Positions 1 through 19,686 of a stretch of 20,000 nucleotides of DNA are shown here, in pieces. Below the pieces are notes generated by a model, which was not told the origin of the DNA, did not search any database, and saw nothing but the letters and a program-made list of their open reading frames with translations. The stretch's first letter is position 1; the number at the start of each line of letters is the position of its first letter. Source of the DNA: Chiloscyllium plagiosum (lineage: Eukaryota); contig NC_057753.1 of the NCBI RefSeq assembly GCF_004010195.1, positions 224,668 to 244,667 of the forward strand, written 5' to 3'. Position numbers and translations under genes: made by a program.

Positions 1-323
1 AGGATTTGAGCTATAGGGAAAGGCTGAACAGGCTGGGGCTGTTTTCCCTGGAGCTTCGTAGTCTGAGGGGTGACCTGATAGAGGTTTACAAAATCATGAG
101 GGGTATGGATGGGGTAATAGGCAAAGTCTTTTCTCTGGGGTGGGGAGTCCAGAACTGGAGGTTTAGGGTGAGAGGGGAAAGATATAAAAGAGACCTACAG
201 CGCAACTTTTCACACAGAGGGTGGTACGTGCATGGAATGAGCTGCCAGAGGATGTGGTGGAGGCTGGTACGGTTGGGTTGGGATATCTGGTCGGCATGGA
301 CAGGTTGGATCGAAGGGTCTGTT

Positions 324-450
324 ATGAGAAAGTGAGGACTGCAGATGCTGGAGATCAGAGCTGAAAAATGTGTTGCTGGAAAAGCGCAGCAGGTCAGACA
401 GCATCCAAGGAGCAGGAGAATCGACGTTTCGGGCATAAGCCCTTCTTCAG
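324..450 (-). mobile_element. Short Penelope-like terminal (pseudo-LTR) element, family A copy 1
   Basis: Homologous to 5114-5243 and 7651-7845. Flanked by direct repeat GAAGGGTCTGTT (312-323, 451-462). Carries a hammerhead motif at its 5' end. Confidence 0.75.
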
Positions 451-453
451 GAA
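419..453 (-). ncRNA. Minimal type-I hammerhead ribozyme motif, core intact
   Basis: Minus strand reads UUC CUGAAGA A GGGC-UUAU-GCCC GAAA CG UC GAUU: CUGANGA box, 4-bp stem II, GAAA, palindromic ACGU and a GUC triplet. Confidence 0.7.
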
Positions 454-602
454 GGGTCTGTTTCCATGCTGTACATCTCTATGACTCTATAATTAGCTGT
501 CTGGAGGGTAGTGGAAGGGGGAGATGAACGAATTGAAAAAGAAACCAGTTGAATACTTGAGGGGAATAAACTTACAGACAATGGGAACAGAACATAAGCA
601 AG

Positions 603-2022
603 TGTCAAGCCTCACTGAGGTGGTGCGCTGGAAATCAGGCTCTGCTATTCCCACAGGCATCACAAACTTTAAGGTCTTTAAAAATGCACAGAATCCCCAA
701 TTCTCCTGTCCATTAGACCCAGGTTTACAGAAAGCACTCCCAGATTTCCATACTTGGTAATTACTACTTATTACAAACGAATAGATGGTCAGCACATAAC
801 TCTACAAATTAAAACTCTAGTCCTGTTATAGACTCCCTTTGCAAACACACAAACACAGACAGGAAATAAAAACATGAGTGTTATGGGCAGACGGAAAGGC
901 TGGGAAGGCAGCTCAATGGTTTCTGTTCACAACCACTGAGATGTCTCTTGCGTTGATTCAGAATGCTGCTTTTTGATTTTTTTTCTCTCAGAAAGCTCTC
1001 ACTGGTTTGCAGGAGGGACAGGGTGACTCATTCACACTCAATGATCACTGACTTGTTAGGTAAGTCATAGCCTACATCAACTGAGGGAGAAATGTATTGA
1101 TTTTCTGGAGGATTAAAGTGACTTTTTGCTGCAGAGACTTGTGGAGACCTGAAGGCATCTCCCTTTCTTGTGCACAAGCCCAGGCTCTTCAGCTACCTGG
1201 GAAACAATAACGTACTTCGACAAATACCTATTTTTTTGCCATTGATAACTGGTCACTAGTCCACGGACCAATCAAGTACCGGTTGCCGGCTGAATCCCCA
1301 TTTGTACATGACCCCCGCCTCCAGCTTGGCTACAAACTTTCCACTCCTGCAATTGGAAGGATGTTGTGAAACTTGAAAAGGTTAATGAAAGATTTTCAAA
1401 GATGCTGCTGAGGTTGGAGGGTTTGAGCTATATGGAGAGGCTGAATAGGCTGGGGTTACTTTCCCTGGAGCGTCGGAGGCTGAGGGGTGACCTTATGGAG
1501 ATTTAGAAGATCATGAGAGGCATTTACAGGGTGAATAGCCATGGTCTTTTCCCCAGGGTAGGGGAGTTCAATCTAGAGGGCATAGGTTTAAGGTGAATGG
1601 GGAAAGATTTAAAAGGGACCTAAGGGGCAACTTTTCACACAGATGGTGGTGTGTGTATAGAATGTTACCAGAGGTGGTGGAGGAGGCTGGTACAATTACA
1701 ACATTTAAAAGGCATCTGGATGGGCGTATGAATAGGAAGGGTTTAGAGGGATCTGAGCCAATTGCCAGAAAATGGGAAGATTGGTTTAGGATACCTGGTT
1801 GGGATGGATGGGTTGGACTGTAGGGTCTGTTCCTGTGCTGTGCAACTCTATGACTCTACTGCTTGAATTAGCAGCTGTGTAAACCATAATTACAAAGAGC
1901 ACCTGGTTACTTGTTTCTTTAGAAGTGCAGCCACCTTTCAATAATCATTGGTTTTAAAGACAGTTCACTTCTCATTTCAGTTCACTAGTTGTTTTTTGTT
2001 TGAGAGACATGGCTTGACTACA
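603..2022 (-). mobile_element. Putative solo LTR splitting an old CR1 3' end, itself interrupted by a CR1 at 1354-1858
   Basis: Starts TGTCAAGCC (603-611) and ends GGCTTGAC(TACA) (2011-2022), a short terminal inverted repeat. Has a minus-strand AATAAA at ~768-773. Flanks (~497-602, ~2025-2075) resemble consecutive CR1 3' sequence. No clean TSD. Confidence 0.4.
1354..1858 (+). mobile_element. 5'-truncated CR1/HER1-type LINE 3' end
   Basis: Paralogous to 1-490 and 6610-7210; ends CTCTATGACTCTA. Confidence 0.9.
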
Positions 2023-2189
2023 CCAGAGAGACTATAGGCAGCTGGCCTCATTCCTCTGTCCTGCAATGACTCTAAGTAACTCAACAATACAGTCCGATGA
2101 CACCGGATCTTGGCAAATTTTGCTTCCTTCTCGATTAGCACACAGTGCTGCACATTAGCAGTAGCTAGCAATCATGGTTAACCAAGAAT

Positions 2190-2573
2190 GTCGTTTTCAA
2201 AACATTCTCTATCGTGGGATGTAGATATCACTGGCAAATATTTACTGCCCACCTCTCACTGCCATTGAACTGAGTGCGTTGCTTGGGCCATTTCCAGGGA
2301 GAGTTAAGAATCAACTACATTGCTGTGGGTCAGGAGTTGTCCTTACATGGTCTGGTCTACATACAACAGGATTTCCTATCCTAAGAGGTATCAGTGACTG
2401 TTTTAATGACAACAGATGATAGACTCATGGCCACCACCACGGAGATGAGCTGCCAGATTTATTAATGGAAACTAAATTCCAGCACAGTTTGCGGTTCGAT
2501 TTGAACCCACACCCCCATGGCATCAGAATGTGCTGCTGGTTTACTAGTCAAGTGACATTGGCACTACACCATC
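2190..2573 (-). mobile_element. Old tRNA-headed SINE (possibly DeuSINE/SacSINE1-like)
   Basis: Minus-strand A-box-like TGGTGTAGTG and B-box-like GGTTCAAATC. Body is similar to 11550-11780 (CATTGCTGTGGGTCAGGAGT vs CATTGCTATGGGTCAAGAGT). Confidence 0.5.
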
Positions 2574-3086
2574 TGCAGTGCACACTGAGGAACTATTGCC
2601 ACCTCCAGTGGGGCTGCCCTGCTGCCGAGATAAAAGCCACACTAGGATGGGGATGGGGGAGGGAAGGATCTGGGACCTCGGCAAGAAGGTGCGCGTCAGC
2701 GAATACAGCTCCGTCAGGAAGCTGGGACGACTCAGCCCATTTTACCGCAGGTTAACCCAGGAGAGTGAGGCGGACCTTTGAGCACAAGTGGACGGGCTGT
2801 GCCTTTGTCCCTTCCAGTGCCCAGGTGGACGGCAGATCACATGCCAGTCCTGTTTCCAGACATCAAGCAAATTCCCTTCATCAACTACGTGTCACCTCAC
2901 CACAAAACTCATTCAAGTTTGTCTCAACCCAATTCGCCCGTGACAAATTAACAGAGTGGGGACTTACTCGGTGGGAAATTTGGGATGGGAAGGATGCAGC
3001 TGAGACAATGGAGGAGCTAATCGAGATGCAAGTGACATGCACGCCGAGACGGGATCTGGTGCAGGAATTCAAAATCATGAGGCGCC

Positions 3087-4325
3087 TCAACAGGGGAGAT
3101 CTATTCCCTGCCTATTCACACGTCCAACAAGATGCCTCTGAAATGCTGCTATTGTATCCACCTCTGGCAGCATATTCCAAGCACTTGCCACCCTCTTTTG
3201 GGGAAAAAAAAACATCTTACCTCTCACATCTCCTTTAAACCTTCCTACTTTTAACTTAAACCTACATACCCAAGCAATTGACACTTCCATGGGGAAACAA
3301 AAAGAAAGAGACTCAACTATCCATGCCCCCCCATAATTCTGTAAACTTTTATTGAAGTGAAAACAAGCCAAGTTTGTCCAATCTCTCCTCATGGCTAATA
3401 CCCTCCAAACCAGGCAACATCTGAGTAAACTGCTTCTGTACCCTCTTCAAAGTCTCCACATGATTCTTGTAGCGTGGTGACCAGAACTCGACACAATATT
3501 CCAAATGCGGCCTAACTGAAGTTCTGTATAGCTGCAACATTACTGGTCAATTTTTATACTCTATTCCCCAACCATTGAATGAGAGGATACTATATGGCCT
3601 TCTTGATGATCTTATCCACTCGGTGTTGCCACATCCAGGGAATTGTGGACCTGTATGCAGAGATCCCTCTGTATGTTGATATTATTAAGGTTCTACCATT
3701 TATCGTATACTTACCTCTGGCGTCAATCTTCTAAGATGCGTCACCTTGTATTTGTCTGGATTAAACTCTATTCTGTTGCTTCTCCTATCTATATCCTGCT
3801 GTACCCTGGCAATTCACTTCACTGTCTGCAGCTCCCCCAGTTTTTGTATTGTTCACAAACTTAGTCACCAGGCCACTAAATCATTGCCAACACCAGGTGT
3901 CCCAGCCCTGAACCCCATGGAATACCCACTGGTCGCAGATCTCCAGCCAGAAAAATGCCCTTCCATGCTACTCTCTGTGACTAAGCTGTTCTGTGTCCAT
4001 CTTCCCAGCTCACAACAGATCCACTGTGGCTTTTGTATCAGTCCGTCTGCCATGCGTGACCCAGGGAGGCCTGCAGTACAACCTTAAAGTGACTGCACCC
4101 TTTCTATTCCCACGATTTATCCACATGGCCTCACGACTCACGGCCTCCAAGGTGTCATCTTGTCAGTATAGAAGTGTTATTCTCCCAAATCAGGAACACA
4201 ACTCACCCATCTCTTTTATATTCCTCTCTATCATGTCTGAGACATCTACATCCTGGCATATTAAGCTGCCAGCCTTGCCCCTCGTTCAACCAAGTCTCTG
4301 TAATAGCTACAGCATCATAGTTATA
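3087..4325 (-). mobile_element. Decayed CR1 LINE ORF2 fragments (RT C-terminus and endonuclease)
   Basis: LQLYRTSVRPHLEYCVEFWSPRY (CR1 RT C-terminus) and YDAVAITETWL (APE-type endonuclease motif); many stops and frameshifts. Confidence 0.85.
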
Positions 4326-4328
4326 TAC

Positions 4329-5040
4329 AGTCACAGATGTACAGCACAAGCAAAGACCCCTCAGTCCAAGTCGTCCATGCTGAATGGATATCCTAAACTG
4401 ATCTAGTCCCATTTGCCAGCACTTGGCCCATATCCCTCCAAACCCTTCCTATTCATATACCCATCCAAATGCCTTTTAAATGCTGTAATTGTACCAGCCT
4501 CCACCACTTCTCTGGCAACTCATTTCATATACACACACCACCCTCTGTGAGAAAAAGTTGCCCCTCGGGTACCTTTTAAATCTTTTCCCTCTCACCTTAA
4601 CCCTGTGCCCTCTAGTTTTGGACTCACCTATGATGGGAAAAAGAACTTGGCTATCCACCCTATCCACGCCTCTCGTGATTTCACAAATCTTTATATGATC
4701 ACCCCTCAGCCTCGCTGTTCCAGGAAAAATATCCCCAGCCTATTCAGCCTCTCGCTATAACTCAAATCCTCCAACCCCAGCAACAGCCTTGTAAACCTTT
4801 TCTGAACCCTTTCAAGTTTCACCACATCTTTCCTATAGCAGAAAGACCAGAATTGAACACAGTATTCCAATAGCGGCCGAACCAATGTCCTGTGCAGCTA
4901 CAATGTGACCTCCCAACTCCTACACTGACCAGTAAAGCAAGCACATCAAACTCCTCCTTCACTAACTTGTCTAGCCCAACTCCACTGTCAAGGAACGATG
5001 AGCCTGCACTCCAAGGTCTCTTTGTCCGGCAACACTCCCC
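4329..5040 (-). mobile_element. CR1/HER1-type LINE 3' end
   Basis: Reverse complement of the 3' region seen at 1354-1858 (ESKTRGHRVKVRGKRFKR), with the tail at ~4330. Confidence 0.9.
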
Positions 5041-5113
5041 GCTCTCGTGAAAGGATTGGGTTGAAGGAGGCACAGATTGAAAGTAACAGGCAAAAGTGCC
5101 AAAGATAAATGTT

Positions 5114-5243
5114 TTCCTGATGAAGAGCTTATGCTCACAACGTCCACTCTCCTGCTCCTCGGATGCTGCCTGACCTACTGTGCTTTTCCAGCACCACACT
5201 CTCGACTCTGATCTCCATGCATCTGCAGTCCTTACTTTCTCAT
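5114..5243 (+). mobile_element. Penelope-like family A copy 2, degenerate hammerhead
   Basis: CTGATGA A GAGC-TTAT-GCTC ACAA CGTC, followed by the family body to ...CTGCAGTCCTTACTTTCTC. Confidence 0.72.
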
Positions 5244-5259
5244 AGCAAGTAATTCTGGT

Positions 5260-5760
5260 CTGTAATCAGCGTGCCTGCCATGCCTGACCTCATACAAAGT
5301 ATTGCTAAAGTCAATATCGACCACTCGGCCTTCATTAATCACTTCTGTCACTTCTTCAACAACCTTCCCCGCAGAAAGCCATGCTGCCGATCACTAATAA
5401 GTCTATATTTTTCCCCAGATCGGAGTAAATCCTAAGAATCTTCTCCAATAGTTGCCCAATTACTGGCCTGTAATTGCCTAGATTATCCTTAGACCCTTAA
5501 ACAAAGGAACAACATTGGCTATTTGCCAGTTCCCTGGGATTTCTCCTGTCACTAAAGAATTCACACAACGCCCCAACAATTTCTTCATTTGCCTCCCTTA
5601 GCATTCTGGGAGAGACCCCATCGTGCTTTGTGGACCTGTCCATCATAACGCTTTTTAAAACACCAAACACCGTTTTCTTTTGTATAATTGTCATGTACCA
5701 GAACATCAAAATGCTGCTTCTGAGAGCCCACCATCCACCATGTCCACCTCTTTTGTGAAT
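5260..5760 (-). mobile_element. Decayed CR1 ORF2 fragments
   Basis: DGVSPRMLREANEEI...ANSQC resembles the CR1 pre-RT region. Confidence 0.65.
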
Positions 5761-5824
5761 CCTGATTCAAAGTATTTATTGAGGACTTCAGAGACTCCGA
5801 TGGTTTTGGGAGGGCGAGGGTAAC

Positions 5825-6066
5825 GTTCACTTGAATGGCTTGCATCTGGAGTGTACAGCTTAAGGCAATGACGGAGGCAGGTTCACTCGAGAAGTTAGGG
5901 TGTGGCGCACACAGTCCAAGACTATCTTGGTGCTGGTGATCACTTGCGCGGTTATTTTGTGGAGTTCACAGCCCGAGATGGGGTACAAGGCAGGTCACTC
6001 GAGTGGTTAGGGTGTAGACTGCACAACAGACTGTGGTTGAGGCAAAGAGAAATTGGATGGTTATTT
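5825..6066. repeat. Degenerate ~56-57 bp tandem repeat with alternating units
   Basis: TCACT(C/T)G..GGTTA-like motif at ~5827, 5883, 5940, 5995 and partly ~6051. AGGCAGG(T)TCACTCGAG..GTTAGGGTGT occurs at 5875 and 5988. Confidence 0.55.
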
Positions 6067-6609
6067 GTGAAGGAATAACGTGCGAGGTTGGGAGGAAGGA
6101 ACGGGAGAGTCGCACCATGTTGCGGATGCTAGGTCAGATAGCCAGTGCAAACATGATGGGCCAAACTGTAGGTGCTTGAAGGGAAAGACACTGAGATGTA
6201 CTGAACCTGATCAAAAGAGATTCTGGAGATCTTGGATTGCCAGTGCAACAGTTTGGAAAGAGCAGACAGTGCATGATCCCTTTGCAAAGGTCCAGGGGCA
6301 TGGTTTGAAGCTCTCCCCTTCTCAGCTGGCTGTATGTGTGATCAGCATTACACTACTAGATGGCACTGTTGTACCAAATATACTTCAGACCAGATTGGGA
6401 GCAAATATTTCAGCTGCCATGCAATTAGCACTATAGTAATAAATGTACACACTCTTTCCCAAATGAGTAGCAACTTGCAGCAAACTAAATTATAATTGTG
6501 TGCAAGTTACTCAGTTTTAATCTGCCAAAATGCCCCAAACTAACCATCACAAATGCAAATATTTTGGTGCTTCTTAAGCTTGCAACTGTGGAAGACAGAC
6601 TGGTGAGGA

Positions 6610-7210
6610 TGCCTTTATGGCATTGAGTATAAGACTTGGGGGGGGAGGTCACATTGCGGCTGTACAGGGCATTGGTTCGACCACTGTTGGAATATGTTCA
6701 ATTCTGGGTCCCCCTGCTATAGGAAAGATGTTGCCAAACTTGAAAGGATTCAGAAAAGATTTAGAAGGATGTTGCCAGAGATTGAGGGTTTGAGCTATAG
6801 CGAGGGACTGAATACGCTGAGGCTGAGCATCAGAGGCCGAGAGGTGACCTTATCGAGGCTTATAAAATCATGAGGGGCACGGACAAGGTGAATAGTCAAG
6901 ATCTTTTTCCTATGGGAGTCCAAAACTAGAGGGCATAGGATTAAAGTGAGGAGGAAAACATTTAAAAGGGACCCGAGTGGCAATGTTTTCATGTAGAGGG
7001 TGGTTTTTTGTGTGGAACAGAGGAAGTGGTGGAGGCTGGTAAAATTACAACATTTAAAAGGCATCTGGATGGGTAAGTGAATGGGAAGGGTTGGGAGGGA
7101 TATGGGTCAAGTGCTGGCAAACGGGACTAGATTAATTAGGATATTGGGCCAGCACAGAAGAGTTGGCCTAATGGGTCCATTTCCATGCTGCACATCTCCA
7201 TGATTCTATG
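6610..7210 (+). mobile_element. CR1/HER1-type LINE 3' fragment
   Basis: Paralogous to 1354-1858; tail CATCTCCATGATTCTATG. Confidence 0.9.
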
Positions 7211-7252
7211 AGGTCAAGCACGTTTGCTTTCCTCTTAGTGGCTCCTTCACTA

Positions 7253-8900
7253 ACTGGAGGGTGGCTAATGTTGTCCCATTTTCAAGAAAAGAGGGAGAGA
7301 GAAAACAGGGAATTATAGACCGGTTAGCCTGACGTCAGTGGTGGGAAAGATGCTGGAGTCAATTATGAAAGATGAAATTACGACTCATTTGGATAGCAGT
7401 AACAGGATAGGTCTGAGTCAGCATGGATTTACGAAGGGGAAATAGTGCTTGACTAACCTCCTGGAATGTTTTGAGGATGCAACTATGAAGATGGACAAGG
7501 GAGAGCCAGTGAATATAGTGTACCTAGACTTTCAGAAAGCCTTTGATAAGGTCCCACATAGGAGACTAATGAGCAAAATTAGGGCACATGGTATTGGGGC
7601 AAAATACTGACTTGGATTGAAAATTGGCTGGCTGACAGGAAGCAAACAGTGCTTAAAAATGTGTTGCTGGAAAAGCACAGCAGGTCAGGCAGCATCAAAG
7701 GAGAAGGAGAATTGACATTTCTGAAGAAGGGCTTATGCCTGAACCGTCGATTCTCCTTCTCCTTTGATGCTGCCTGACCTGCTGCGCTTTTCCAGGAACA
7801 CATTTTTAAGCTCTGATCCCCAGGATCTGCAGTCCTCACTTTCTCCAGGAAGCAAACAGTAGTGATGAATGGGTCCCTATCGGAATGGCAGGCGGTAACC
7901 AGTGAGGTACCACAAGGTTCGGTGCTGGGACCGCAGCTGTTTACAATATACATTAGTGATATAGATGAAAGTATTAAAAGTAATATTAGCAAATTTGCTG
8001 ATGACACAAAGCTGGGTGGCAGGGTGAAATGTGAGGATATTAGGAGATCACAGGGTGACCTGGACAGGTTAGGTGAGTGGACGGATGCAGCTTAACGTGG
8101 ATAAATGTGTGGTTATCCACTTTGGTGGCAAGAACAGGAAGGCAGAATACTGTCAAAATGGAGTCAAGTTAGGTAAAGGAGCAATACAACAAGATCTAGG
8201 TGTTCTTGTACATCAGTCAATGAAAGCAAGCATGCAGGTACAGCAGGCAGTGAAGAAAGCTAATGGATTGCTGGCCTTCGTAACAAGAGGAATTGAGTAT
8301 AGGAGCAAAGAGATCCTTCTGCAGCTGTACCCAGGGCCCTGGTGAGATCGCACCTGGAGTATTGTGTGCAGTTTTGGTCTCCAAATTTGAGGAAAGACAT
8401 TCTGGCTATTGAGGGAGTGCAGGGTAGGTTCACGAGGTCAATTCCCAGAATGGCGGGACTATCTTACGCTGAAAGATTGGAGTGATTGGGCTTATATACC
8501 CTTGAGTTTAGAAGGCTGAGAGGGGATCTGATTGAGACGTATAAGGTTATTAAAGGATTGGACACGCTGGACGCAGGAGGCAAGATTCCACTGATGGGTG
8601 GGTCCAAAACCAGAGGATACGGTTTTAAAATAAGGGGTAGGCCATTTAGAAGAGTTGAGGAGAAACTTCATCACCCAGAGAGTTGTGGGTGTATGGAACG
8701 CTCTGCCCCAGAAGGCAGTGAAGGCCAAGTCTCTGGATACTTTCGAGAAAGAGTTGGATAGAGCTCTTAAAGATAGTGGAATCAAGGATTATGGGGATAA
8801 GGCAGGAACAGGATACTGATTGCGGGTGATCAGCCATGATCATAATGAATGGTGGTGCTGGCTCGAAGGGCCGAACGGCCTACTCCTTCACCAATTGTTA
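7253..8900 (+). mobile_element. ~1.6-kb 5'-truncated CR1 LINE with RT domain (inactive)
   Basis: [20 protein letters not shown]...[12 protein letters not shown] motifs and VYLDFQKAFDKVPH. Contains stops/frameshifts and an insertion at 7651-7845. Confidence 0.95.
7651..7845 (+). mobile_element. Penelope-like family A copy 3 with inverted partial copy (fold-back)
   Basis: 15-bp TSD CAGGAAGCAAACAGT (7636-7650, 7846-7860). Arms 7651-7721 and 7741-7811 are inverted. Hammerhead motif at 7721-7748. Confidence 0.8.
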
Positions 8901-8904
8901 AAAA

Positions 8905-9282
8905 AAAACTGCCACAGACCCAATCTAGCAGCAATGTCCTTTAGGACTCAAATAGTTTGGTCAGCCATGGCGCTTCTGAGCTACTTTCGCCGATGATCGT
9001 TGAAACCCCCCCCCACCAACCAAAGCACCCTTGTTACCCTCAGTGCTTCCTCCGCCTTGTGTTCAACGTGGAGGAAGCACTCAATCAGCAGCAGAGGTGG
9101 CTCAGGGTTCAGTACATGGTAGTCAGCAGGTTCCCTTTCCTAGACTTGCACAAGTATCACAAGGCCCAATTGGAGGGGGGAGGGGTTCAGGAGTCAATGT
9201 TGAGGCCTTCCAGGGCAACTCCCTCCAAAATAAGTATCACCGTGCCACCACCTCTGCTGAGTCCATCCTGTGGGTGAGGACA
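8905..9282 (-). mobile_element. Old LINE (CR1/L2-like) fragment
   Basis: Homologous to ~11050-11300 (GTTCAACGTGGAGGAAGCACT vs GTTCAACATGGAGAAGCACT; GTGCCACCACCT shared). Confidence 0.55.
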
Positions 9283-9593
9283 TGATTTAAAAAGGACAGA
9301 GAGAAAACAGAGTTACAGACTGGGTGGTTTGGGGGGGGGGGAAGGGGGAGGGTGTGCTTGACATTGGCACTCAGGAAAATGCTAGAATCCATTATAAGAT
9401 CAAAGAGCAGGACACTTGGAAAACAGTGACTGGATTGGATATAGTCGGCATGGATTTACAAAAGGAAAAATAATGCTTGACAACTCGACTGGAATTTTTC
9501 AGGTATTTAATTAGTAGTGATGATAAAAGGGAGCCACCAGATGTGATTCAGTTGGACTCCAAGAAGTCTTTTGACAAAGGTCCCACAAACAAA

Positions 9594-10399
9594 TGTCATG
9601 GACCGGACCAGACCAGACCAGACCCCCTCCAAATATTTTAAGAAGGTAGCCTTGACTTAACTTATTTCAGTAACTTTACCTTACTTTTAAGGCAAATGTA
9701 AACTGCCGTGTTGCAGATGCAACATAACCGGTCAAGTTATTTTATGTTAAGCAAAACACAATTTATTTAAATACTGCAGTTAAAACGCAACCAAAAGGAA
9801 GAGAAATTTAGAATAACCTAACTCTCAGAAAACTTCTCAGAACAATAGATACAGTAGTTAACTCTCCCAATGAAGTTACATCCCATAAACACACACTGAC
9901 AAAAAGGAAAACTCAGAAAAACAGATTTTGTCTCCCGTGCAATCAAGAAAGAGAACCCTCAGCTTTTGGTTGTAGTCGAAGGGGGGAAAAAACCCAGCTT
10001 CCACTTCTTCAAGCTCACAAAAGCAACTGCCTAAAGCTAAACCTAAAAACTGAAAAGAAAAAGGACTAGAAATCTTGGCCTGTGACAGCTGGATTCACCT
10101 CTCCAGGCTGCTTCTATCGTTCCCAACTTTAAACACAAACCCCCAAGGTCTCACAGGCTGTATAGAACAATACAGCGCAGAACAGGCCCTTCGGCCCTTG
10201 ATGTTGCGCCGACTGTGAACTATTCTCAGCTTGTCCCCCTACACTATCCCAAAATCATCCATGTGCTTATCTAAGGATTGCTTAAATCTCCCTGTATACT
10301 CTAGTGCTTTTGGTATCCTGCTCTATACTTTCCTTACAACCTCTCTTCAAAGCAAAAAAAAAACTAGGACAAAATAACCTGAAAGCCACAGCATAATCA
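9594..10399 (-). mobile_element. Putative solo LTR
   Basis: TG...CA-bounded block (TGTCATGG...CATAATCA) interrupting collinear CR1 sequence; minus-strand AATAAA at ~9762-9767. Confidence 0.55.
10165..10291 (-). mobile_element. Short CR1-type 3' end inserted in the putative LTR
   Basis: GAACAATACAGCGCAGAACAGGCCCTTCGGCCC tail; 7-bp TSD CTGTATA (10158-10164, 10292-10298). Confidence 0.75.
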
Positions 10400-10699
10400 G
10401 AGATCTGCACGTAAAATTAAACGCATGGGATTGGGAGTAGTGCACTATCACATATAGAGAACTGGTTGGCAGGCAGGAAACAATAAATGGTCCTTTTCCC
10501 CACGTGTCAACCAGACCTATAAAGGTAAAGTGTCCGACGTTCCAGGGAGAATAGCACCCATCTATTCAGCCTCTCAAACCGTCTAACCCTGGCAACATCC
10601 TTCCACACCTTCCCTGAACCCTTTGAAGTTTCACAATATCTTTGCTGCAGAAAGCAAGGAGACTGGAATAGTTTGTTGTTGTTTCACCAGGTATACATG

Positions 10700-11500
10700 C
10701 CTGGAATAACCTCCAGCATTCTTGACTGAACTAAGGAGGAATACAATTCTGCTGCTGCTGACACCACAAAAATACCTGTTCTTTTATTTGCTAGGTCCAC
10801 TCAAAGTTTATCCTATTTAGCATAGTAGTGGTGTCATTAGGTAAAAAGGAGGCTGTTCTCAATGTAGCGATGGAACTTTGTCTCCACAGGGGCTATGCAG
10901 CACTAACTCCCACCGGATAGATATATCTGTAATAGGTTGATTTTCCCCTCACGTTGGATCCAGTCGAGCAGTTTGTATCCTTCAGGACTCAAACAATTCA
11001 GTCAGTAAGAGTGCTGCTGAGCCACTACTGGAGATGGACATGGAATCTCTGAGTGCATTCTTGCCACCCTCAGTGCCTCCTCCCAATGTTCAACATGGAG
11101 AAGCACTGATTCATCAGCCAACAGAGAATGGGATTTGGGAAGCGGGTTGGAGGGTTCCTTGCTCATGTTTGATTTGAGGTCATGGCCTGGAACTACAGAG
11201 TCAAGAGTAGAAGCTGAAAATCTCCTGGGGCAAGTCCTTTCTGACTGTATACTACTGTGCCACCACCTGCCTTACAGCAGGGCAGGACATATCCAGGGAT
11301 AGTTGTGGTGGTGATTTCGGTGATATTTTATTTATGGTGCGACTCAGACAATACATCTGGTCAGAACGATCGTTTGATTGGATTTTGGGACAACTATCTG
11401 CAAGCCATGGGTGGACGAGGAGAACGCTGCAGACTCTGTCATGTGTTAGCTGCTGCCATTTCCAGAGCCTACATCGTCGGCAAGTGGTCTGTGGCATTGC
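10700..11500 (-). mobile_element. Old LINE (CR1/L2-like) fragments
   Basis: Similarity to 8905-9282; heavily decayed, so boundaries are approximate. Confidence 0.45.
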
Positions 11501-11549
11501 AATGCTTCGAGACAATTTAACGGTTTGATACAGAGAGTGACCTGGGAAG

Positions 11550-11780
11550 TCGTTTCAGTGGGGCAGTTAAAGCAAACCACATTGCTATGGGTCAAGAGTC
11601 ACACGTCAGGCCACACTGGGTAATGTAGGCCCATACCCTTCCCTAAAAAGGACATTAATGAACCATTTTTTTACGATCTCACAGGTGACAATGATACGTT
11701 TTTCATGGAATTAAAACTTCATGATCTGCCACAATAACAGCAGTCTTCACTCTGCAGTACCATTCTGGTGAAATTACCAC
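11550..11780 (-). mobile_element. Old SINE, same family as 2190-2573
   Basis: Shared body motifs with 2290-2480. Confidence 0.45.
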
Positions 11781-11849
11781 TGTGCTAAATTCCTCTCCAG
11801 GTGGAGGCCATATGGGGAGCACTACAGGCAGTTAGAGTAAAGGGTGCAT

Positions 11850-12630
11850 TATCTGGGTGGCAACCTGTAACTAGCGTGTGCCACAAGGGTTAGTATTGGG
11901 GCCACAGTTTTTAGAATATATACCAATGATTTGGAATCCAGAGGTGAACATAGTTCGTGAGTAACAGGAGGGAAGGCAAGTGGTGAGGATGAAATAGGCT
12001 GCAGAGAGACACACTGACAGGTTGAGAGATTTGACAAAAACTTGGCAGATGGATTGAGTGGAAAAATGCTAGATTATGCACTTTGAAGAGGAGAGAAGCT
12101 GAATATTATTTAAGTGGAGAAAGACTGCAGAACAGAGCAAATTGAGGGTCTGGTGCGTAAATCATAAAAAGCTGGCATCCACTGTCAGCTAGCATCACAG
12201 AATCCCTAGTGTGGAAGTAGGCCATTCAGCCCACCAAGTCCACACCAACCCTCTGAAGAGCATCCCACCCACACCACTACCCTATAACTCTGCATTTCCC
12301 ACGGTTAATCCTCCTAACCAACACATCATGGGCAAGTTAGCACAGCCAACCCATCTAACGTAGAAATTTTTGGGTAACTGGGAAGGCAAATGGAACATTG
12401 GCCTTTATTTAAAAAGGGAAAGGACAAGTAGTGTATAGAGGTCTTGCGACAAGTACAATAGTTACTAGTCAGAGTGCAGCTGGAACACTGAACAATTTTG
12501 GGCATCTGACATTGTAGGCAGTTCACTAGGCTGTACCAGATATGGAGGGGCTGTTTTACCAGGTGAGGTAGAGTAAATTGGCCCGATACTCATTGGAATA
12601 CTGAAGAATGAGAGGTGACCCTACTGAAGC
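11850..12630 (+). mobile_element. Decayed CR1 RT fragment interrupted by a SINE
   Basis: GTGCCACAAGGGTTAGTATTGGGGCCACAG corresponds to VPQG.VLGPQ; collinear with 7890-8540. Confidence 0.75.
12193..12359 (-). mobile_element. HE1/V-SINE-type 3' half
   Basis: Contains the unit amplified at 17240-18002 plus a CR1-like tail. Confidence 0.65.
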
Positions 12631-12633
12631 AGT

Positions 12634-12905
12634 CATGATTTGGAGATGCCGGTGTTGGAACTGGGGTGAACAGCGTTAAAAGTCACACAACGCCAGGTTA
12701 TAGTCCAACAGGTTTAATTGGAAGCACACCAGCTTTCGGAGCGACGCTCCTTTATCAAGTGGTGATAGCGAGACAATGTGTTGAAGGTGTTAGCCCCCTG
12801 TGTTCTCTGTCTATGACCTGATGTTGAGATTGATTCCAATCTAAAAAGTGAAATAACAGAGTTTTACATAAATTCATGCAGTTTTTGAGCAAAGTGCAAT
12901 GTAAC
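12634..12905 (-). mobile_element. Penelope-like element family B terminal fragment
   Basis: Interrupts the CR1 and carries a hammerhead-like motif at 12727-12761; family assigned by recognition. Confidence 0.6.
12727..12761 (-). ncRNA. Minimal hammerhead-like motif (U3-A8 variant, N17=G)
   Basis: CAC UUGAUAA A GGAGC-GUC-GCUCC GAAA GC UG GUG: 3-bp stem I, 5-bp stem II and palindromic AGCU. Confidence 0.55.
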
Positions 12906-13224
12906 CCTCATTGTCCTCCCCCCCCCCTGTACTCAATGACTACGGGGGGGGGGAGGGGGGGGTGGGGCTTGTAGCCACAGGCGGACAATGAGGGAGTCGC
13001 GCGAAGAGGAGAACAATGGGGCGGGGAGGGGCCGTCACCAGAACAATGGGCCGAGCGGCCTCCATTACGCGACTGGATTCCGCGCATGCGCCCATCCCGG
13101 TCTCCCGCTCCGACCGCTAAGATGGCGGGCCGGTTGCCCCTGGCAACGGGGAAGCGCAGCGCTGCCGGGGGAGGGGAAGTGAGACAAAACTAAAACTCCC
13201 TGTGTTTCCTGGAGGACGGGGTCA

Positions 13225-13269
13225 CCACACACTCACACTCACACTCGCACTCTCTCTCTCTCTCTCTCT
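13225..13269. repeat. Compound (CA/CACT)n-(CT)n microsatellite
   Basis: Direct reading of the sequence. Confidence 0.85.
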
Positions 13270-13283
13270 GGGGAATGTCTTAC

Positions 13284-13321
13284 CTGCTCCAGCCGGACGG
13301 ACGGACTGACGGCGCGTCCAT
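13284..13321 (-). CDS. Putative first coding exon of an unidentified minus-strand gene (MDAPSVRPSGWS-R, phase 2)
   Basis: Strong Kozak context GTGAAGATGG and consensus donor CAG|GTAAGA at 13284/13283. Two NRF1-like GCGCCTGCGC motifs lie just upstream. It could instead be a 5'UTR exon. Confidence 0.5.
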
Positions 13322-13960
13322 CTTCACCCGCCCATCACCACCAGCTCTGCTGCGCCTGCGCGGTGATCCCTCTGCGCCTGCGCGGTAGCTCCAGCCGCCT
13401 CCCCGCTCCCCACCCTCCGGGAAAAAAAATAGGGACGGGGCCGCGCCCCGCTCCGTGCGGACATGCGCGCGCACGCACACGCACACACAGCAAAGGCAGA
13501 GGCGGCCCGGCGACAGGGCCCCGCTTCGTCCGTCACCGCCGCCGCCGCCAACAACAACACCCTGCACCGGTGGATCGGCCGCAACAGCCGGTTATTTTTT
13601 AGGGTGAGGAGGAGGACGGGACGGACTGTGGTGGCCGGGGGGGGGGGGAAACCGGCGGCTGCCCCCGCGCGGCGCACCACGGGAATGGTGGGTGGGTGCA
13701 GCTGCCCCCCCACGGCACGGGGCCGCCGCTGGGGAGGGGAAGGGGAAGGGGAAGGGGCGGGGCCTCCGGTTCCCAGGCAACGTGGCGCCCGGCCCCGCCT
13801 ACTCGCCAGCTCGCGCCGACGTGCGCGTTCCCGTCTCCCCTTCCAACCAGCAGCCGCGTGCGCGATGACGTCACTGCGCCCCTTTCGCGCTCTCCCTCCA
13901 CTCCCCCAGGGGGGGCGCGCCTTCAACTATTGCGCGCGATCGCGCGGGACCTTCCCTCTC

Positions 13961-13992
13961 CGTGCGTGTGTGTGTGCGCGCGCGCGCGCGCG
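13961..13992. repeat. Alternating purine-pyrimidine (TG)n(CG)n tract
   Basis: 32 bp of uninterrupted alternation. Confidence 0.85.
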
Positions 13993-14997
13993 AGCGAGAG
14001 GGAGAGAGCGAAACACCTTTCCCCCAGCTCCGACTGGACCGCTCGGTGGAACGGCCGCTGACCGACAGCGAGCGGCGGCCAATGGGGAGACGGGGTGCCG
14101 GGCCGCTCCATTGTTCGGCGCGCGGCCAATGGCGGAGCGGCCAGGGGGCGGGACTTGCGGCGGCCGGCCCAGACTGAGGCCGGAGTCTCTTTGTCTCCCA
14201 GCGCAGCCTCTGTGCCAGGGCCCCGGCCTTGGTGCTGCTGCAGCAGCTGCAGGCCAGGCATAGGCGCCCAGGCCTTGGGTGGGTGGGGGACGGGGGACTG
14301 GGGACGGGAGGGGGGGTGGGGTGGCGTGGCGTGGCGTGGCCAGACGGGGTTGGTTGGTGCAACCCACCCTTCCCTCCACTCCACTCCATGTCATTGCAAC
14401 CTGCGGCCCTGCACCCAGATTTCATGGTAGATGCACGTTTCCTCTTTATTTGCAAAAAAAAATGTTCTAAGCAAACCAAAAAGCGAAGAGATCGGGAGAT
14501 CTGTTTGCAATCCCTGAAGGAATCTGCAGCCTGTGGTTGGTTCGTGCCAGAATTATTATTATTTTCAACCTTACCACCCCCTTAATCCCATCTCTTTTAT
14601 TTTCTTCCCCCTCCTTTCTCTCTCCTGCAATTGCATTTTTTTTATTGGGAGGGTGTGTGTGTGTGTCTGGATGTTAAAGGGGGCAGGCTCTTCTTAAAGG
14701 GGCAGTTCTTTTTCGGAGGAGGGAGGCTCTTTGGCTGGTGGTGTGGGTTACAGAGAGCCCACCACTCTGGGGTCTCCTGCTGTGATGGTGCTGAAAAGTA
14801 CAGCCCCCTCAAGCCAGTTGCCAAGTTGATAGGTGACCCAGAGGGGGCAAAGAGCTTTCCCTAACGTTCTTCTCCTTTTGTCCGGAAGGCGGTGGAGGAC
14901 ACCTCAGCACCAAATGACCCCCCGTCTCCGAATGTGGATGGTAGGTGGGAAGGGATGTGGCAGTCCGCTAGTCAAAGAGACCGGATCTCTGTCAGTC

Positions 14998-15329
14998 GGG
15001 GTGGCATAGTGGTTTAGCACCGCTGCTTCACCGTGCCAGGGACACAGCTTCAGTTCCAGCCTGGGGTGAAGGTGTAACTGCAGTTTGCAGGATCTATTCC
15101 CCACCCCTCCTTGCCCCCCCCCCCATGTCTGCTTGGGGTTTGCGCCAGGTGCACTCGCACCATCCAAAGATGTGCAGGTTGGTTTTGGGTGGTTAGGCCG
15201 TGCTAAATCGACCCGTCGTGTCCTGGGAGGCGTCGGCTGGGTGGGTTAGCCGTAGGGAAACGTTGGGCACTCTTAAAAGGGTTGGTGCAGACTGGACAGG
15301 CCGAATGCGCTTTCGGGATTCTGTGAATT
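14998..15329 (+). mobile_element. Diverged near-full-length HE1/V-SINE-type element
   Basis: A-box TGGCATAGTGG, core CCAAAGATGTGCAGGTT...GGCCGTGCTAAAT and a CR1-like tail. Confidence 0.75.
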
Positions 15330-15489
15330 GGCTCGGGGGGGTACCCTTTCTGTGGTAAATGGGAAAGGGAGTGACTGCTGAATGATCTACTCCAGCGCCC
15401 TAATGCGTGGCCTGATTTGCCTTTTGTTTTCTCTGGTTTACGGAATCTGGGGTACTGGGTGGTCAATGGGGAAACCGGGATGAAGACGT

Positions 15490-15615
15490 TTGGATAAGTA
15501 CGCAAAGAGGTAAGGTTTGGATGGATGTGGCCCGGGGGCAGGCAAGTGAGGCTAGCTTAGTTTGGGATTATGGACTGCTTGGACCGAAGGGTCTGTTTCC
15601 GTGCTTTGTGACTGT
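15490..15615 (+). mobile_element. CR1 3' tail fragment
   Basis: GGACCGAAGGGTCTGTTTCCGTGCT matches the other tails. Confidence 0.7.
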
Positions 15616-16142
15616 AATAAAGGGAGTTCCATTTGCTCTGGGGGAAGTGATGGGGGCTCTAGCTTTTGCGCATGGAGCAGCGATCGTAACCCTGAAAGGT
15701 GGAATCGCTCCTCCCACCAACCCCGCAAACTTTGTAAAGCATAAGGAGTTAAAAGCAGAGGTAACCCTTTGGTCCCTGTCTAAGCCTATGGCACTATATG
15801 CATTGAGACCCAGGCTGTTCTCCTGCCTTGGTTTCATCTTCCTGCCACCTCTCCATCTGGAGACGTCTCTATTCCCTCCAAAACGAAGTGTCACGGCTTA
15901 AGGGATCGCAGGGGGTGAGGGGGACATTTGTCTTCCCCTTCTTGCCCCCTCTCGGAGGTGGTGAGAGTCTTTGCAATTCCCTACCTCCAAAGGCAGTGGA
16001 CGCAGGACCTTTTAAATATCTCCAAGACAAAGGTAGGTAGATTCTCGATGGGGGTGAGAGATTACCCGGGGTGGGGGGGGTGCGGCATGTGGAGTTGAGG
16101 TTAGCCATCAGAGGAGCCGCTGCTTGGCAGAGCAGAACAATG

Positions 16143-17239: not shown

Positions 17240-18002
17240 AATTTAGCATGGCCTATCCATCCTAACCTGCACATCCATGGGCACTGTGGGTAATTTAGAA
17301 CGGCCAGTCCATCCTAACCTGCGCATCCATGGGCACTGTGGGTAATTTAGAACGGCCAGTCCATCCTTACCTGCACAGCCCAGGGCACTATGGGTAATTT
17401 AGAACGGCCAGTCCATCCTAACCTGCACATCCATGGGCACTATGGGTAATTTAGTATGGCCAGTCCATCCTAACTTGCACATCCCTGGACACAATGGGTA
17501 AGTTAGCATGGCCAATCCACCCTAACCTGCACATCACTGGGCACTGTGGGTAATTTAGTATGGCCAGTCCATCCTAACTTGCACATCCCTGGACACAATG
17601 GGTAAGTTAGCATGGCCAATCCACCCTAACCTGCACATCCCTGGGCACTATGGGTAATTTAGCACGGCCAATCCACCCTAACCTGCACATCCCTGGGCAC
17701 TGTGGCTAATTTAGCAAGGCCAATTCACCCTGACCTGCACATCCCTGGGCACTGTGGGTAATTTAGCATGGCCTATCAATCCTAACCTGCACATCCATGG
17801 GCACTGTGGGTAATTTAGCACGGCCAATCCACCCTAACCTGCACATCCCTGGGCACTGTGGGTAATTTAACACGGCCAGTCCATCCTAACCTGCACATCC
17901 CTGGGCACTGTGGGTAATTTAGCACGGCCAGTCCATCCTAACCTGCACAACCCAGGGCACTATGGGTAATTTAGCACGGCCAATCCACCCTGACCTGCAC
18001 AC
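17240..18002. repeat. 52-bp minisatellite, ~14.7 units, derived from the SINE body
   Basis: Unit AATTTAGCAYGGCCARTCCAYCCTAACCTGCACATCCCTGGGCACTRTGGGT starts every 52 bp from 17240 to 17968. Confidence 0.97.
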
Positions 18003-18155
18003 CTTTGGACTGTGGGAGGAAACCGGAGCACCCGGAGGAAACCCACACAGACACGGGGAGAATGTGCAAACTCCACACAGACAGTCGCCGGAGGCCGGAA
18101 TTGAACCCGGGTCTCTGGTGCTGTGAGGCAGCAGTGCTAACCCACTGAGCCACCG
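17968..18155 (-). mobile_element. HE1/V-SINE-type element, intact tRNA-derived head
   Basis: A-box TGGCTCAGTGG (18152-18142) and B-box GGTTCAATTCC (18107-18097). V-domain-like GTGGGTTTCCTCCGGGTGCTCCGGTTTCCTCCCAC. Runs directly into the minisatellite. Confidence 0.9.
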
Positions 18156-18433
18156 GGCCCCTTCTTTGAGCTTTTTTTTTTTCTGTGTGTTTTTTTTTCC
18201 CTTTTGTCAGAGCTGCTTTCCCCTTCCCGCGGGTTTCTCTGCTGGACTGATGGAAATCTCTTTTCTGTGAATCTCTCTGGCGCTGTGAGGCAGCAGTGCT
18301 AACCCACTGAGCCACCGGGCCCCTTCTTTGAGCTTTTTTTTTCTGTGTGTTTTTTTTTCCCTTTTGTCAGAGCTGCTTTCCCCTTCCCGCGGGTTTCTCT
18401 GCTGGACTGATGGAAATCTCTTTTCTGTGAATC
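18112..18433. repeat. Near-perfect ~160-bp tandem duplication
   Basis: 18112-18273 vs 18274-18433 differ by one substitution and T-run length. Confidence 0.93.
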
Positions 18434-18555: not shown

Positions 18556-19686
18556 ATGGAGACGGCGAACGGCAAGCCGGCCGGCGAGGGGAAGGCGGCG
18601 GGGCGCCGGGCCGCGGGCGAGGGGCGCCCCCGGGAGAAGACGCACAAGTGCGGCGACTGCGGCAAGAGCTACCACACCCAGTCGGAGCTGGAGACCCACC
18701 GGCGCGGGCACACCGGCGAGCGCCCCTTCTGCTGCCCGGTCTGCGAGAAGGGCTTCACCCGCTCCTCGGACCTGCGGGTGCACCAGCGGGTGCACACCGG
18801 CGAGCGGCCCTTCGCCTGCCCGGTCTGCGAGAAGAGCTTCACCCGCTCGTCGCACCTGCTGACCCACCAGCGGGTGCACACCGGCGAGCGGCCCTACAGC
18901 TGCTCGGTCTGCGGCAAGGGCTTCACCCAGCTCTCCAACCGGCTGCGGCACCAGCGGCTGCACACCGGCGAGCGGCCCTTCACCTGCCCGGTGTGCCGCA
19001 AGGGCTTCACCGACTCCTCCACCCTGCTGCGGCACCAGCGGCTGCACACCGAGGAGCGGCCCTTCACCTGCTCGGTGTGCGGCAAGGGCTTCACCCGCTC
19101 GCCGCACCTGCTGACCCACCAGCGGGTGCACACCGGCGAGCGGCCCTTCTCCTGCTCGGTGTGCGGCCGTCGCTTTACTCAGTCCTCCCACCTGCTGACC
19201 CACCAGCACAGCCACACCGGGGAGAGGCCCTTCCGCTGCTCGGTGTGCGGCCGCGGCTTCACCCAGCTCTCCCTGCTGCTGGCCCACCAGCACCTGCACG
19301 CCGAGAACAACCCAGTCAAGTACCCGGACGGCGAGGAGCCGGGCGCCGGCGAGGAGGAGGGCAGCCAGGGGGTGGCAACGCCCGCCCTGCTGCCCCCGCC
19401 CCCGCTGGGGCCCCCCCGGCCTGCCCAGGCCGGCGAGCGGCCCTTCAAGTGCTCGGTGTGCGCCAAGGCCTTCACCTGCCTCTCCCACCTGCTGCGGCAC
19501 CTGCGGGTGCACAGCGGCGAGCGGCCCTTCCAGTGCACCGTCTGCGAGAAGGGCTTCACCCAGTCGTCCAGCCTGCTCACCCACCAGCGCATCCACACCG
19601 GCGAGCGGCCCTTCTCCTGCTCGCAGTGTGGCAAGGGCTTCTCCCGCTCCTCCCACCTCCTTCGGCACCAGAGAGTGCACGTTTGA
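18556..19686 (+). CDS. C2H2 zinc-finger protein, 11 fingers (8+3), 376 aa from the first in-frame ATG
   Basis: Repeated C-X2-C-X12-H-X3-H with TGERP linkers. Kozak GCCGCGGCATGG. Acceptors at 18370 and 18445 leave the frame open, so an upstream exon may extend the N-terminus. Confidence 0.93.
   Translation: METANGKPAGEGKAAGRRAAGEGRPREKTHKCGDCGKSYHTQSELETHRRGHTGERPFCCPVCEKGFTRSSDLRVHQRVHTGERPFACPVCEKSFTRSSHLLTHQRVHTGERPYSCSVCGKGFTQLSNRLRHQRLHTGERPFTCPVCRKGFTDSSTLLRHQRLHTEERPFTCSVCGKGFTRSPHLLTHQRVHTGERPFSCSVCGRRFTQSSHLLTHQHSHTGERPFRCSVCGRGFTQLSLLLAHQHLHAENNPVKYPDGEEPGAGEEEGSQGVATPALLPPPPLGPPRPAQAGERPFKCSVCAKAFTCLSHLLRHLRVHSGERPFQCTVCEKGFTQSSSLLTHQRIHTGERPFSCSQCGKGFSRSSHLLRHQRVHV

What the first reader, a model, noticed from the sequence alone, without database searches (positions are those of the whole stretch)
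419..453. Intact minimal hammerhead ribozyme core in a ~130-nt insertion with a TSD
Seen: CUGAAGA-A-GGGC/UUAU/GCCC-GAAA-CG-UC on the minus strand, at the 5' end of an insert flanked by a 12-bp direct repeat. Known: Penelope-like retroelements carry minimal type-I hammerheads with palindromic stem III that work as dimers. Inference: cleavage would fall after GUC (423/422). The motif is in sense orientation to the putative leftward gene. Stem I is only 2 bp here.
Basis: partly seen in the sequence, partly recalled or inferred. Interest (0 to 1): 0.72.

Follow-up and report, generated by a model that had tools for sequence, protein, structure and literature searches.

The report
Penelope stub carrying minimal hammerhead motif
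This 127-base insert is one of an estimated half-million short end pieces of a known jumping gene (a Penelope-like element) in this genome; its hammerhead-ribozyme motif is real but likely inactive as a lone copy, and such pieces likely arise when reverse transcriptase runs off the capped start of the element's uncut RNA.

Summary
Window 450-423 (- strand) carries every core base of a minimal type-I hammerhead, at the 5' end of a 127-bp insert flanked by an exact 12-bp duplication. Stem I is 2 bp. The insert is a pseudo-LTR piece of a Neptune-type Penelope-like element: an RT + GIY-YIG frame runs into the same sequence elsewhere. There are 27,158 exact copies of the motif and an estimated 0.5-0.6 million pieces. 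Such motifs, and their scattered solo copies, are published. Rfam gives no hammerhead hit. Individual copies show no excess core conservation, but subfamily changes spare the core, and stem II shows one compensatory pair. Copy 5' ends cluster 2-6 nt upstream of the core, at an initiator-like TCATTCC, and rarely at the predicted cut. In this subfamily 63 of 100 listed copies ending at the initiator A carry an extra G, against 14 of 100 one base further in. This suggests cDNA run-off from a capped, uncleaved RNA. The G signal is weaker in a second subfamily and absent in a sister family. No dimer partner lies nearby, and no link to a host gene was shown. The scan found this before on other DNA.

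The parts
324..453 (-). Penelope-like (Neptune-type) pseudo-LTR stub. Insert 324-450; 451-453 shared with the target duplication. Starts 3 nt upstream of the hammerhead core and runs to the end of the 'tail'.
   Evidence: 125 of 128 identical to three fetched loci; parent ORF
423..450 (-). Minimal type-I hammerhead: CUGAAGA 450-444, bulged A 443, stem II 442-439/434-431, loop 438-435, GAAA 430-427, palindrome ACGU 427-424, C17 423 (predicted cut 423/422)
   Evidence: sequence; pattern vs shuffles; stem II pair probabilities 0.58-0.93
419..422 (-). 3' strand of stem I (GAUU); only the first two bases pair in this copy
451..453 (-). 5' strand of stem I (UUC), identical to the end of the target duplication; the parent's fourth base, the initiator-like A, is missing here
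324..359 (-). Optional 3' 'tail' between the two preferred 3' ends of the family (about +85..+94 and +123..+125 from C3); boundaries approximate
   Evidence: 3'-end histograms; tail concept from PMC8557442 and PMC11167929
312..323 (+). Target-site duplication, left copy (12 bp)
451..462 (+). Target-site duplication, right copy (12 bp)
1..323 (+). Host repeat, left part: 3' end of a LINE (CR1-like; label recalled from its peptide motif, not tested), interrupted by the stub
   Evidence: repeat families D7, D9, D11, D16
463..490 (+). Host repeat, right part: remainder of the LINE 3' tail
   Evidence: family D17
5114..5241 (+). Older, decayed stub of the same element (84% to reference); stem II carries the A-U variant pair, GAAA box broken
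7647..7846 (.). Head-to-head pair: inverted partial stub (7647-7721, -) joined to a 130-nt stub (7716-7846, +), inside a 14-15-bp duplication (7636-7650 / 7846-7860); two core mismatches

Best explanation
The insert is a solo pseudo-LTR piece of a very abundant Neptune-type Penelope-like retrotransposon, and it is likely a dead-end cDNA made when the element's reverse transcriptase starts about 90 or 125 nt inside an uncleaved RNA and runs off near its likely capped 5' end. Shown: the motif, the duplication, the parent (RT + zinc-finger linker + GIY-YIG frame running into this sequence; this sequence running on into the ORF start), the copy numbers, the two 3'-end clusters, the 5'-end cluster just upstream of the core, and the extra G in this subfamily. 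Inferred: the transcript starts at the A of TCATTCC, 4 nt upstream of C3, so its first four bases are the 5' strand of stem I. The endonuclease nicks a target and RT primes internally (as shown in vitro for an anole element, PMC11167929), copies through the uncut hammerhead and reaches the cap, often adding one base opposite it. The cDNA end is joined by microhomology to the target or to a second cDNA made on the other strand, which gives head-to-head pairs. In the parent the hammerhead is predicted to cut after GUC only as a dimer or with protein help. This copy lacks the first base, keeps 2 bp of stem I, has no partner, and is likely inert. Odds: identity about 0.95; capped run-off origin about 0.6; this copy inert about 0.85.
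For: Parent: L254 frame has RVT_1 E=6.4e-8 and GIY-YIG E=3.5e-4 with a CxxxxCxxC linker and a DKG motif, followed at once by the pLTR. The tail runs into an ATG with a long open frame in L301 and L305. L409 shows tail, ATG, an assembly gap, then hammerhead and tail 3.8 kb on. Copy number: 27,158 exact 38-mers over the core, 69,836 exact 39-mers of the body, 1,216 of an endonuclease 26-mer, 1,468 of the ORF start. 130 pieces lie in 767,603 non-N bases of 80 stretches fetched without regard to content. 5' ends with family-matched references: 48 of 130 at -8..0, 5 of 130 at +26..+31. In 30 young copies picked only by their body, 15 end at -7..-2 (one of them at an N gap), none at +28 and two at +30; all four ending at -4 are preceded by G. 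Base before a -4 start: G 63, A 19, T 18 of the first 100 listed of 6,556. Control, base before a -3 start: G 14, C 49, T 37 of the first 100 of 6,861. Fisher p=7e-13. The base before the G varies, so a shared master flank is unlikely. Among 17 non-inverted -4 copies 10 have G, two of them one duplicated locus. Stem I is a perfect 4 bp, ending at the -4 base, in subfamily A2. An untemplated 5' G as a cap signature is described for L1 and SVA (PMC4859970, passages). An internal promoter with Inr and DPE is described for Drosophila Penelope (PMC2377424, one section and passages).
Against: The G signal is not general. Subfamily A2 has G 42, A 47, T 11 of the first 100 of 2,493, and only 4 of 13 non-inverted A2 copies have G. 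Sister family B has G 5, A 7 among its 12 non-native rows of 93. Many Gs are also present in the target or the inverted partner, so microhomology could select them. The 5' cluster is broad (-5..0), not a single base. Part of the sharp -4 peak was an artefact of using one reference for families with different upstream sequence, and some old copies may still be mis-bounded. No RNA 5'-end data were obtained, and no cleavage was tested.
Confidence: 0.7

Rival explanations
1. The stubs are ordinary 5'-truncated copies begun at the 3' pLTR, and RT pauses or is joined by microhomology just past the hammerhead for structural reasons, with no RNA end there.
For: Heavy 5' truncation is typical of PLEs (PMC8557442, passages). 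The cluster is broad and 25 of 130 copies extend more than 15 nt upstream. Many junctions show microhomology, including this one (3 nt). The G excess is weak in A2 and absent in family B.
Against: A hairpin would be expected to stop RT on its 3' side, yet ends lie 10-14 nt beyond stem II. The G excess is present at -4 and absent at -3. The cluster coincides with an initiator-like motif kept in both families (TCATTCC, TTATTCC).
Confidence: 0.2
2. The ~130-nt unit is a separate non-autonomous, ribozyme-headed mobile RNA (SINE- or retrozyme-like) amplified from its own masters.
For: Uniform length classes and own duplications. Two loci share a 224-nt tandem unit with the same junction and a hammerhead in each unit (L307, L312/L313). 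Non-LTR retrozymes derive from PLE pLTRs (bioRxiv 10.64898/2026.07.22.740005, parts 1-3 of 5 read).
Against: Short and long copies share the same subfamily letters in A1, A2 and B. 5' and 3' ends vary as in the parent. Inverted partners are frequent (13 of 30 and 17 of 30 loci). 5' ends do not sit at the cut site, as processing by self-cleavage would give. This copy is a monomer.
Confidence: 0.07
3. This particular copy is a functional, possibly co-opted, self-cleaving element in an intron of a leftward host gene.
For: All core bases are intact. A plausible leftward first exon with a splice donor lies at about 13321-13284 (sequence).
Against: Stem I is essentially unformed in prediction. No partner lies within 30 kb. 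An intact core is common: 26 in the 768-kb sample. The copy is young (125 of 128 identical to other loci). Published minimal motifs did not cleave as monomers (PMC4209133) or needed the element's protein (PMC11167929).
Confidence: 0.03

Closest known systems
Minimal hammerheads (min-HHR) of metazoan PLE pseudo-LTRs (Cervera & De la Pena 2014, PMC4209133; parts 1-2 of 4 read, two of three supplements searched)
   Same: Type-I topology, full core, one base between positions 9 and 10.1, G10.1-C11.1 pair, palindromic 15.2-16.2 with no loop III, short helix I, mass occurrence as single motifs from truncated PLEs, head-to-head pairs.
   Different: Helix II is 4 bp here against 7-8 bp in Schistosoma and 6 bp in D. 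virilis. Numbers are far higher (about 1e5 intact cores by extrapolation, against about 4,000 in coelacanth and 9,000 in Xenopus). No cartilaginous-fish term was found in the searched supplements. The parts read did not map copy ends.
EN+ Penelope-like elements, Neptune clade (PMC8557442 and PMC3846280, passages)
   Same: Single ORF with RT, DKG motif, zinc-finger linker and C-terminal GIY-YIG; pLTRs in direct and inverted arrangement; optional 30-40-bp tail; TSDs; Inr-like motif in the pLTR.
   Different: Clade was assigned from motifs only, without a tree. No microsatellite target bias was seen in the loci viewed (not counted).
Anolis PAc Poseidon element (Frangieh et al. 2024, PMC11167929; parts 1-2 of 4 read)
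   Same: Two RT start sites about one tail apart, downstream of the hammerhead; uncleaved RNA as the main template; extension on both target strands.
   Different: In PAc the ORF starts at stem II; here the ATG lies about 40 nt past the tail. The parts read did not report a 5'-end hotspot or an extra G.
Non-LTR retrozymes (bioRxiv 10.64898/2026.07.22.740005, parts 1-3 of 5; PMC7229834, search listing only)
   Same: PLE-derived, type-I hammerhead, non-coding; monomer copies are common.
   Different: Defined as tandem repeats with a hammerhead in at least two consecutive units. This locus is a monomer; only rare loci such as L307 and L312/L313 fit.

Membership tests
Minimal type-I hammerhead of PLEs | Core boxes CUGANGA, GAAA and UH | tested here: met
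Minimal type-I hammerhead of PLEs | Helix II closed by G10.1-C11.1 with an unpaired base after A9 | tested here: met
   compensatory A-U pair in 13 of 100 listed A-variant copies vs 1 of 116 G-variant copies
Minimal type-I hammerhead of PLEs | Palindromic helix III stub (15.1-16.1) | tested here: met
   ACGU at 427-424
Minimal type-I hammerhead of PLEs | Helix I of 2-5 bp | tested here: inconclusive
   2 bp in this copy, 3 of 4 in parent A1 and family B, 4 of 4 in A2; predicted pairing below 0.01 in this copy
Minimal type-I hammerhead of PLEs | Located in the pLTR of an RT + GIY-YIG element | tested here: met
Minimal type-I hammerhead of PLEs | Self-cleavage as a dimer or with protein help | not testable with these tools
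   Needs an in vitro assay; cofolding did not give the active dimer as the lowest-energy form
Rfam hammerhead families | Covariance-model match | tested here: not met
   No hammerhead model among 6 matches at E<=10 in window 1-2000
EN+ PLE, Neptune clade (parent element) | One ORF with RT and C-terminal GIY-YIG | tested here: met
   RVT_1 above cut-off in 3 of 3 proteins; GIY-YIG E about 3e-4 but just under the curated cut-off in 2 of 3
EN+ PLE, Neptune clade (parent element) | Zinc-finger-like linker between RT and EN | tested here: met
   CNRRRCNTC at about residues 742-750 of P0001; the motif is shared with Nematis per PMC8557442
EN+ PLE, Neptune clade (parent element) | Partial tandem or inverted pLTRs, and an optional tail | tested here: met
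EN+ PLE, Neptune clade (parent element) | RT phylogeny within Neptune | not tested
   No named reference PLE proteins were on hand; the PDB sequence search gave 0 matches
Non-LTR retrozyme | Tandem units, at least two consecutive ones with a hammerhead | tested here: not met
   Single core in 30 kb; met only at rare other loci (L307, L312/L313)
Non-LTR retrozyme | Circular RNA from self-cleavage | not testable with these tools
   The available RNA runs were unsuited

The most novel reading that the evidence does not exclude
The hammerhead is built into the element's transcription start. The first four bases of the capped RNA are the 5' strand of stem I, and the palindromic ACGU sits at +28..+31, the position of a downstream promoter element (the Drosophila Penelope motif RGACGTGY shares ACGT). 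Cutting would then remove a 32-nt capped leader and act as a dimer- or protein-gated decapping switch between translated and template RNA. The hundreds of thousands of stubs would be a fossil 5'-RACE library showing that uncut, capped RNA is the template in vivo.
Probability: 0.3. Interest if true: 0.55.

Novelty: new member of a known kind. Interest (0 to 1): 0.25.

Why it matters
The locus itself is ordinary: one of very many decaying pieces of a known kind of retroelement. The family-level pattern is of moderate use, because the role of PLE hammerheads is still open (PMC8557442 calls it unclear). Copy ends here agree with the in vitro result that uncleaved RNA is the template (PMC11167929). 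They also give a precise, testable prediction for the transcript start, and show natural tandem units that can be assayed for dimer cleavage. In seven literature searches I saw no paper reporting the cap-G or start-site clustering for PLE stubs. The library lacks most subscription papers, Lunse et al. (PMC5785218) was not held, and bioRxiv supplements could not be seen.

Tried and rejected
Rfam scan of 1-2000: no hammerhead. DNA-similarity search of the genome with the insert: nothing, because very common words are skipped. Pfam on three short ORF pieces: 0 of 3; longer frames worked. PDB sequence search with P0001: 0. Single-reference 5'-end histogram: its sharp -4 peak was partly an artefact, and one search replaces it. 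Core conservation among individual copies: not above the body. Cofolding two monomers: the active dimer was not the predicted minimum; nearest-neighbour folding says little about this. Sequencing runs: no RNA holder listed. One single-cell poly(A) run from a coded organism laid 1,621 reads on a long pLTR copy, on both strands, with no pile-up of molecule starts or ends; its loose ends at the -4 position (96 reads) reflect transcribed genomic stubs, not RNA starts, and the second run laid nothing. Laying four runs on window 1-16000 gave repeat-derived signal and no clear spliced host gene among the joints listed. Idea that the extra G is copied from the GAUUC that follows the cut site: not supported as the sole cause, since G still exceeds T (42 vs 11) in A2, where that sequence is GAAUC; not excluded. 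Idea that an upstream splice acceptor at about -26 sets the 5' ends: rejected, since no ends cluster there. Structure prediction and large protein searches were not run, as they would not change the verdict.

Full report
Observation. On the minus strand, 450-423 reads CUGAAGA-A-GGGC-UUAU-GCCC-GAAA-CG-UC, followed by GAUU. All conserved hammerhead bases are present, and the predicted cut is 423/422. A pattern for this motif with up to 3 mismatches found 2 matches in the window and none in 200 shuffles. The insert is 324-450 (127 bp) between exact 12-bp repeats at 312-323 and 451-462. The flanks match an uninterrupted copy of the host repeat at 74 of 77 positions. The host is the 3' end of a plus-strand LINE (CR1-like, label recalled). 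Stem I has two Watson-Crick pairs. Rfam finds no hammerhead in 1-2000 at E<=10.

What it is. The genome (G000, 3.56 Gb; its repeats recall cartilaginous fish, from memory) holds 27,158 exact copies of a 38-mer over the motif and 69,836 of a 39-mer from the body; backwards controls gave 0. In 80 stretches of 10 kb taken mostly at round coordinates on 14 contigs (767,603 non-N bases) there were 130 pieces and 26 intact cores. This extrapolates to roughly 0.5-0.6 million pieces and about 1e5 cores. Longer copies run upstream into an endonuclease frame. L254 holds an 893-residue open frame with RVT_1 (E=6.4e-8), a DKG motif, a CxxxxCxxC linker and GIY-YIG (E=3.5e-4, just under the curated cut-off), directly followed by the pLTR with the hammerhead. 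Downstream, the tail continues into an ATG and a long frame. L409 shows tail, ATG, an assembly gap, then hammerhead and tail, about 3.8 kb apart. Exact 25-26-mers from the ORF number only 1,216 and 1,468, so stubs far outnumber long copies. The insert is thus a pLTR piece of an EN+ Penelope-like element of Neptune type (motifs per PMC8557442, passages; no tree was built).

Is the hammerhead under selection? I aligned 66 of the sampled copies, those spanning the core, to one real copy. Non-CpG core positions averaged 0.96 majority frequency against 0.94 in the body (p=0.20), and the three CpGs in and beside the core are decayed (0.73-0.83). Inserted copies therefore drift. Common alternative letters, which mark subfamilies, fall at N7 (T 37, A 24, G 4), in loop II and at stem I position 1.3, and none falls in the core. 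Among copies with A at the second stem II position, 13 of the first 100 listed (of 1,390) carry the compensating T (counted by eye), against 1 of 116 copies with G (p=4e-4). This is probably a single event in an old master lineage. Subfamily A2 has a perfect 4-bp stem I; A1 (this copy's subfamily) and family B have 3 of 4. The pattern fits selection on master elements, but the evidence is modest.

Where copies begin and end. 3' ends fall in two groups, about +83..+94 and +121..+125 from C3. This is the PLE 'tail', which PMC11167929 traces to two internal RT start sites. The first 5'-end histogram used one reference and overstated a -4 peak, because family B has different upstream sequence. With family-matched references, 48 of 130 ends lie at -8..0, 25 beyond -15, 10 at -15..-9, 19 at +1..+10, 12 at +11..+25, 5 at +26..+31 and 11 further in. 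Of 30 young copies picked by the body only, 15 end at -7..-2, none at +28 and two at +30; four of the 30 abut N gaps. Templates were therefore mostly uncut RNA, as found in vitro for the anole element. Position -4 is the A of TCATTCC, which fits the initiator consensus YYANWYY (recalled); family B has TTATTCC. In subfamily A1 the base before a -4 start was G in 63, A in 19 and T in 18 of the first 100 listed. Before a -3 start, G was 14 of 100 (p=7e-13). These listings cover only the start of contig C1 and were counted by eye. Of 20 G loci inspected, about 7 share the G with the target, about 5 with an inverted partner, and the rest look untemplated or are unclear. An extra 5' G is described as a cap signature for L1 and SVA (PMC4859970, passages). 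Against generality: A2 gave G 42, A 47, T 11, with 16 of the A rows from eight palindromic head-to-head junctions and only 4 of 13 non-inverted loci showing G. Family B gave G 5 and A 7.

Mechanism. Shown: identity, parent, ends, and the G excess in A1. Inferred: a Pol II transcript starts at -4 from an internal promoter, as in Drosophila Penelope (PMC2377424, one section and passages). RT primes at a nick and starts 90 or 125 nt into the RNA. When it does so on the 5' pLTR it copies through the uncut hammerhead and runs off near the cap, leaving a 95-130-nt stub. Extension on both target strands gives the frequent head-to-head pairs (13 of 30 and 17 of 30 loci; one in this window at 7647-7846). 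This copy starts at -3, joined by a 3-nt microhomology, so the target supplies the edge of stem I.

Is this copy active? Probably not. Predicted stem I pairing is below 0.01, and it is the only intact core on either strand in the window plus 10 kb to its left. Published minimal motifs showed no monomer cleavage and low dimer cleavage (PMC4209133, parts 1-2 of 4), needed the element's protein (PMC11167929, parts 1-2 of 4), or cleaved in 1 of 9 natural dimers (bioRxiv 10.64898/2026.07.22.740005, parts 1-3 of 5). The review PMC6765202 (passages) says the same. A leftward first exon is plausible near 13321-13284, but its reach to position 450 was not shown, and the stubs in the window lie on both strands.

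Comparison and novelty. Minimal hammerheads in PLE pLTRs and their genome-wide solo copies are published (PMC4209133). A 2026 preprint reports retrozymes in one cartilaginous fish and derives them from pLTRs. This locus is a new member of that known kind, works like a PLE min-HHR by sequence, and fails the tandem criterion for retrozymes. The capped run-off reading did not appear in my seven searches. One key paper was not held, one supplement of PMC4209133 was not searchable, and preprint supplements are closed. I recorded this reading before looking at earlier scan notes; four unreviewed notes reach the same reading in this and other genomes, which is repetition and not independent support.

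Verdict. Real, correctly described, ordinary as a locus. Interest 0.25.

Noticed in passing
L307/L308 (G000:C1 about 16,163,000) and L312/L313 (G000:C1 about 26,522,100): Two separate loci carry head-to-tail 224-nt units (hammerhead, tail, first codons of the ORF) with the same junction and an intact A2 hammerhead in consecutive units; retrozyme-like and a natural substrate for a dimer test.
   Followed up: partly
L351-L380: A second abundant PLE family (B; N7=U, loop UUUU, different upstream and tail sequence) makes up 93 of the first 100 listed of 20,383 matches; it keeps the core and an initiator-like TTATTCC but showed no G excess.
   Followed up: partly
window 13321-13278 (- strand): ATG followed 38 nt later by a consensus splice donor inside a CpG island (about 13000-14500): a plausible first coding exon of a leftward gene, possibly at a bidirectional promoter.
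   Followed up: no
window 18603-19764 (+ strand): Array of 84-bp C2H2 zinc-finger repeats, GC-rich, probably a zinc-finger gene exon.
   Followed up: no
window 17240-18016 and 18112-18433: A 52-bp minisatellite of 15 copies and a 160-bp tandem duplication, both related to a dispersed SINE-like repeat.
   Followed up: no
window 427-424 (- strand): The hammerhead's palindromic ACGT lies at +28..+31 from the inferred start, where a downstream promoter element would sit; the Drosophila Penelope motif RGACGTGY shares ACGT (PMC2377424). Possible dual coding.
   Followed up: no
L019:1695-1760: A stub that begins at the predicted cut site, next to a longer copy; such ends are rare but present.
   Followed up: partly
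L254 5061-4500 (- strand); L410: In-frame tandem peptide repeats inside otherwise open PLE frames, reminiscent of the inserts reported in rotifer PLE ORFs (PMC3846280, passages); could also be assembly artefacts.
   Followed up: no
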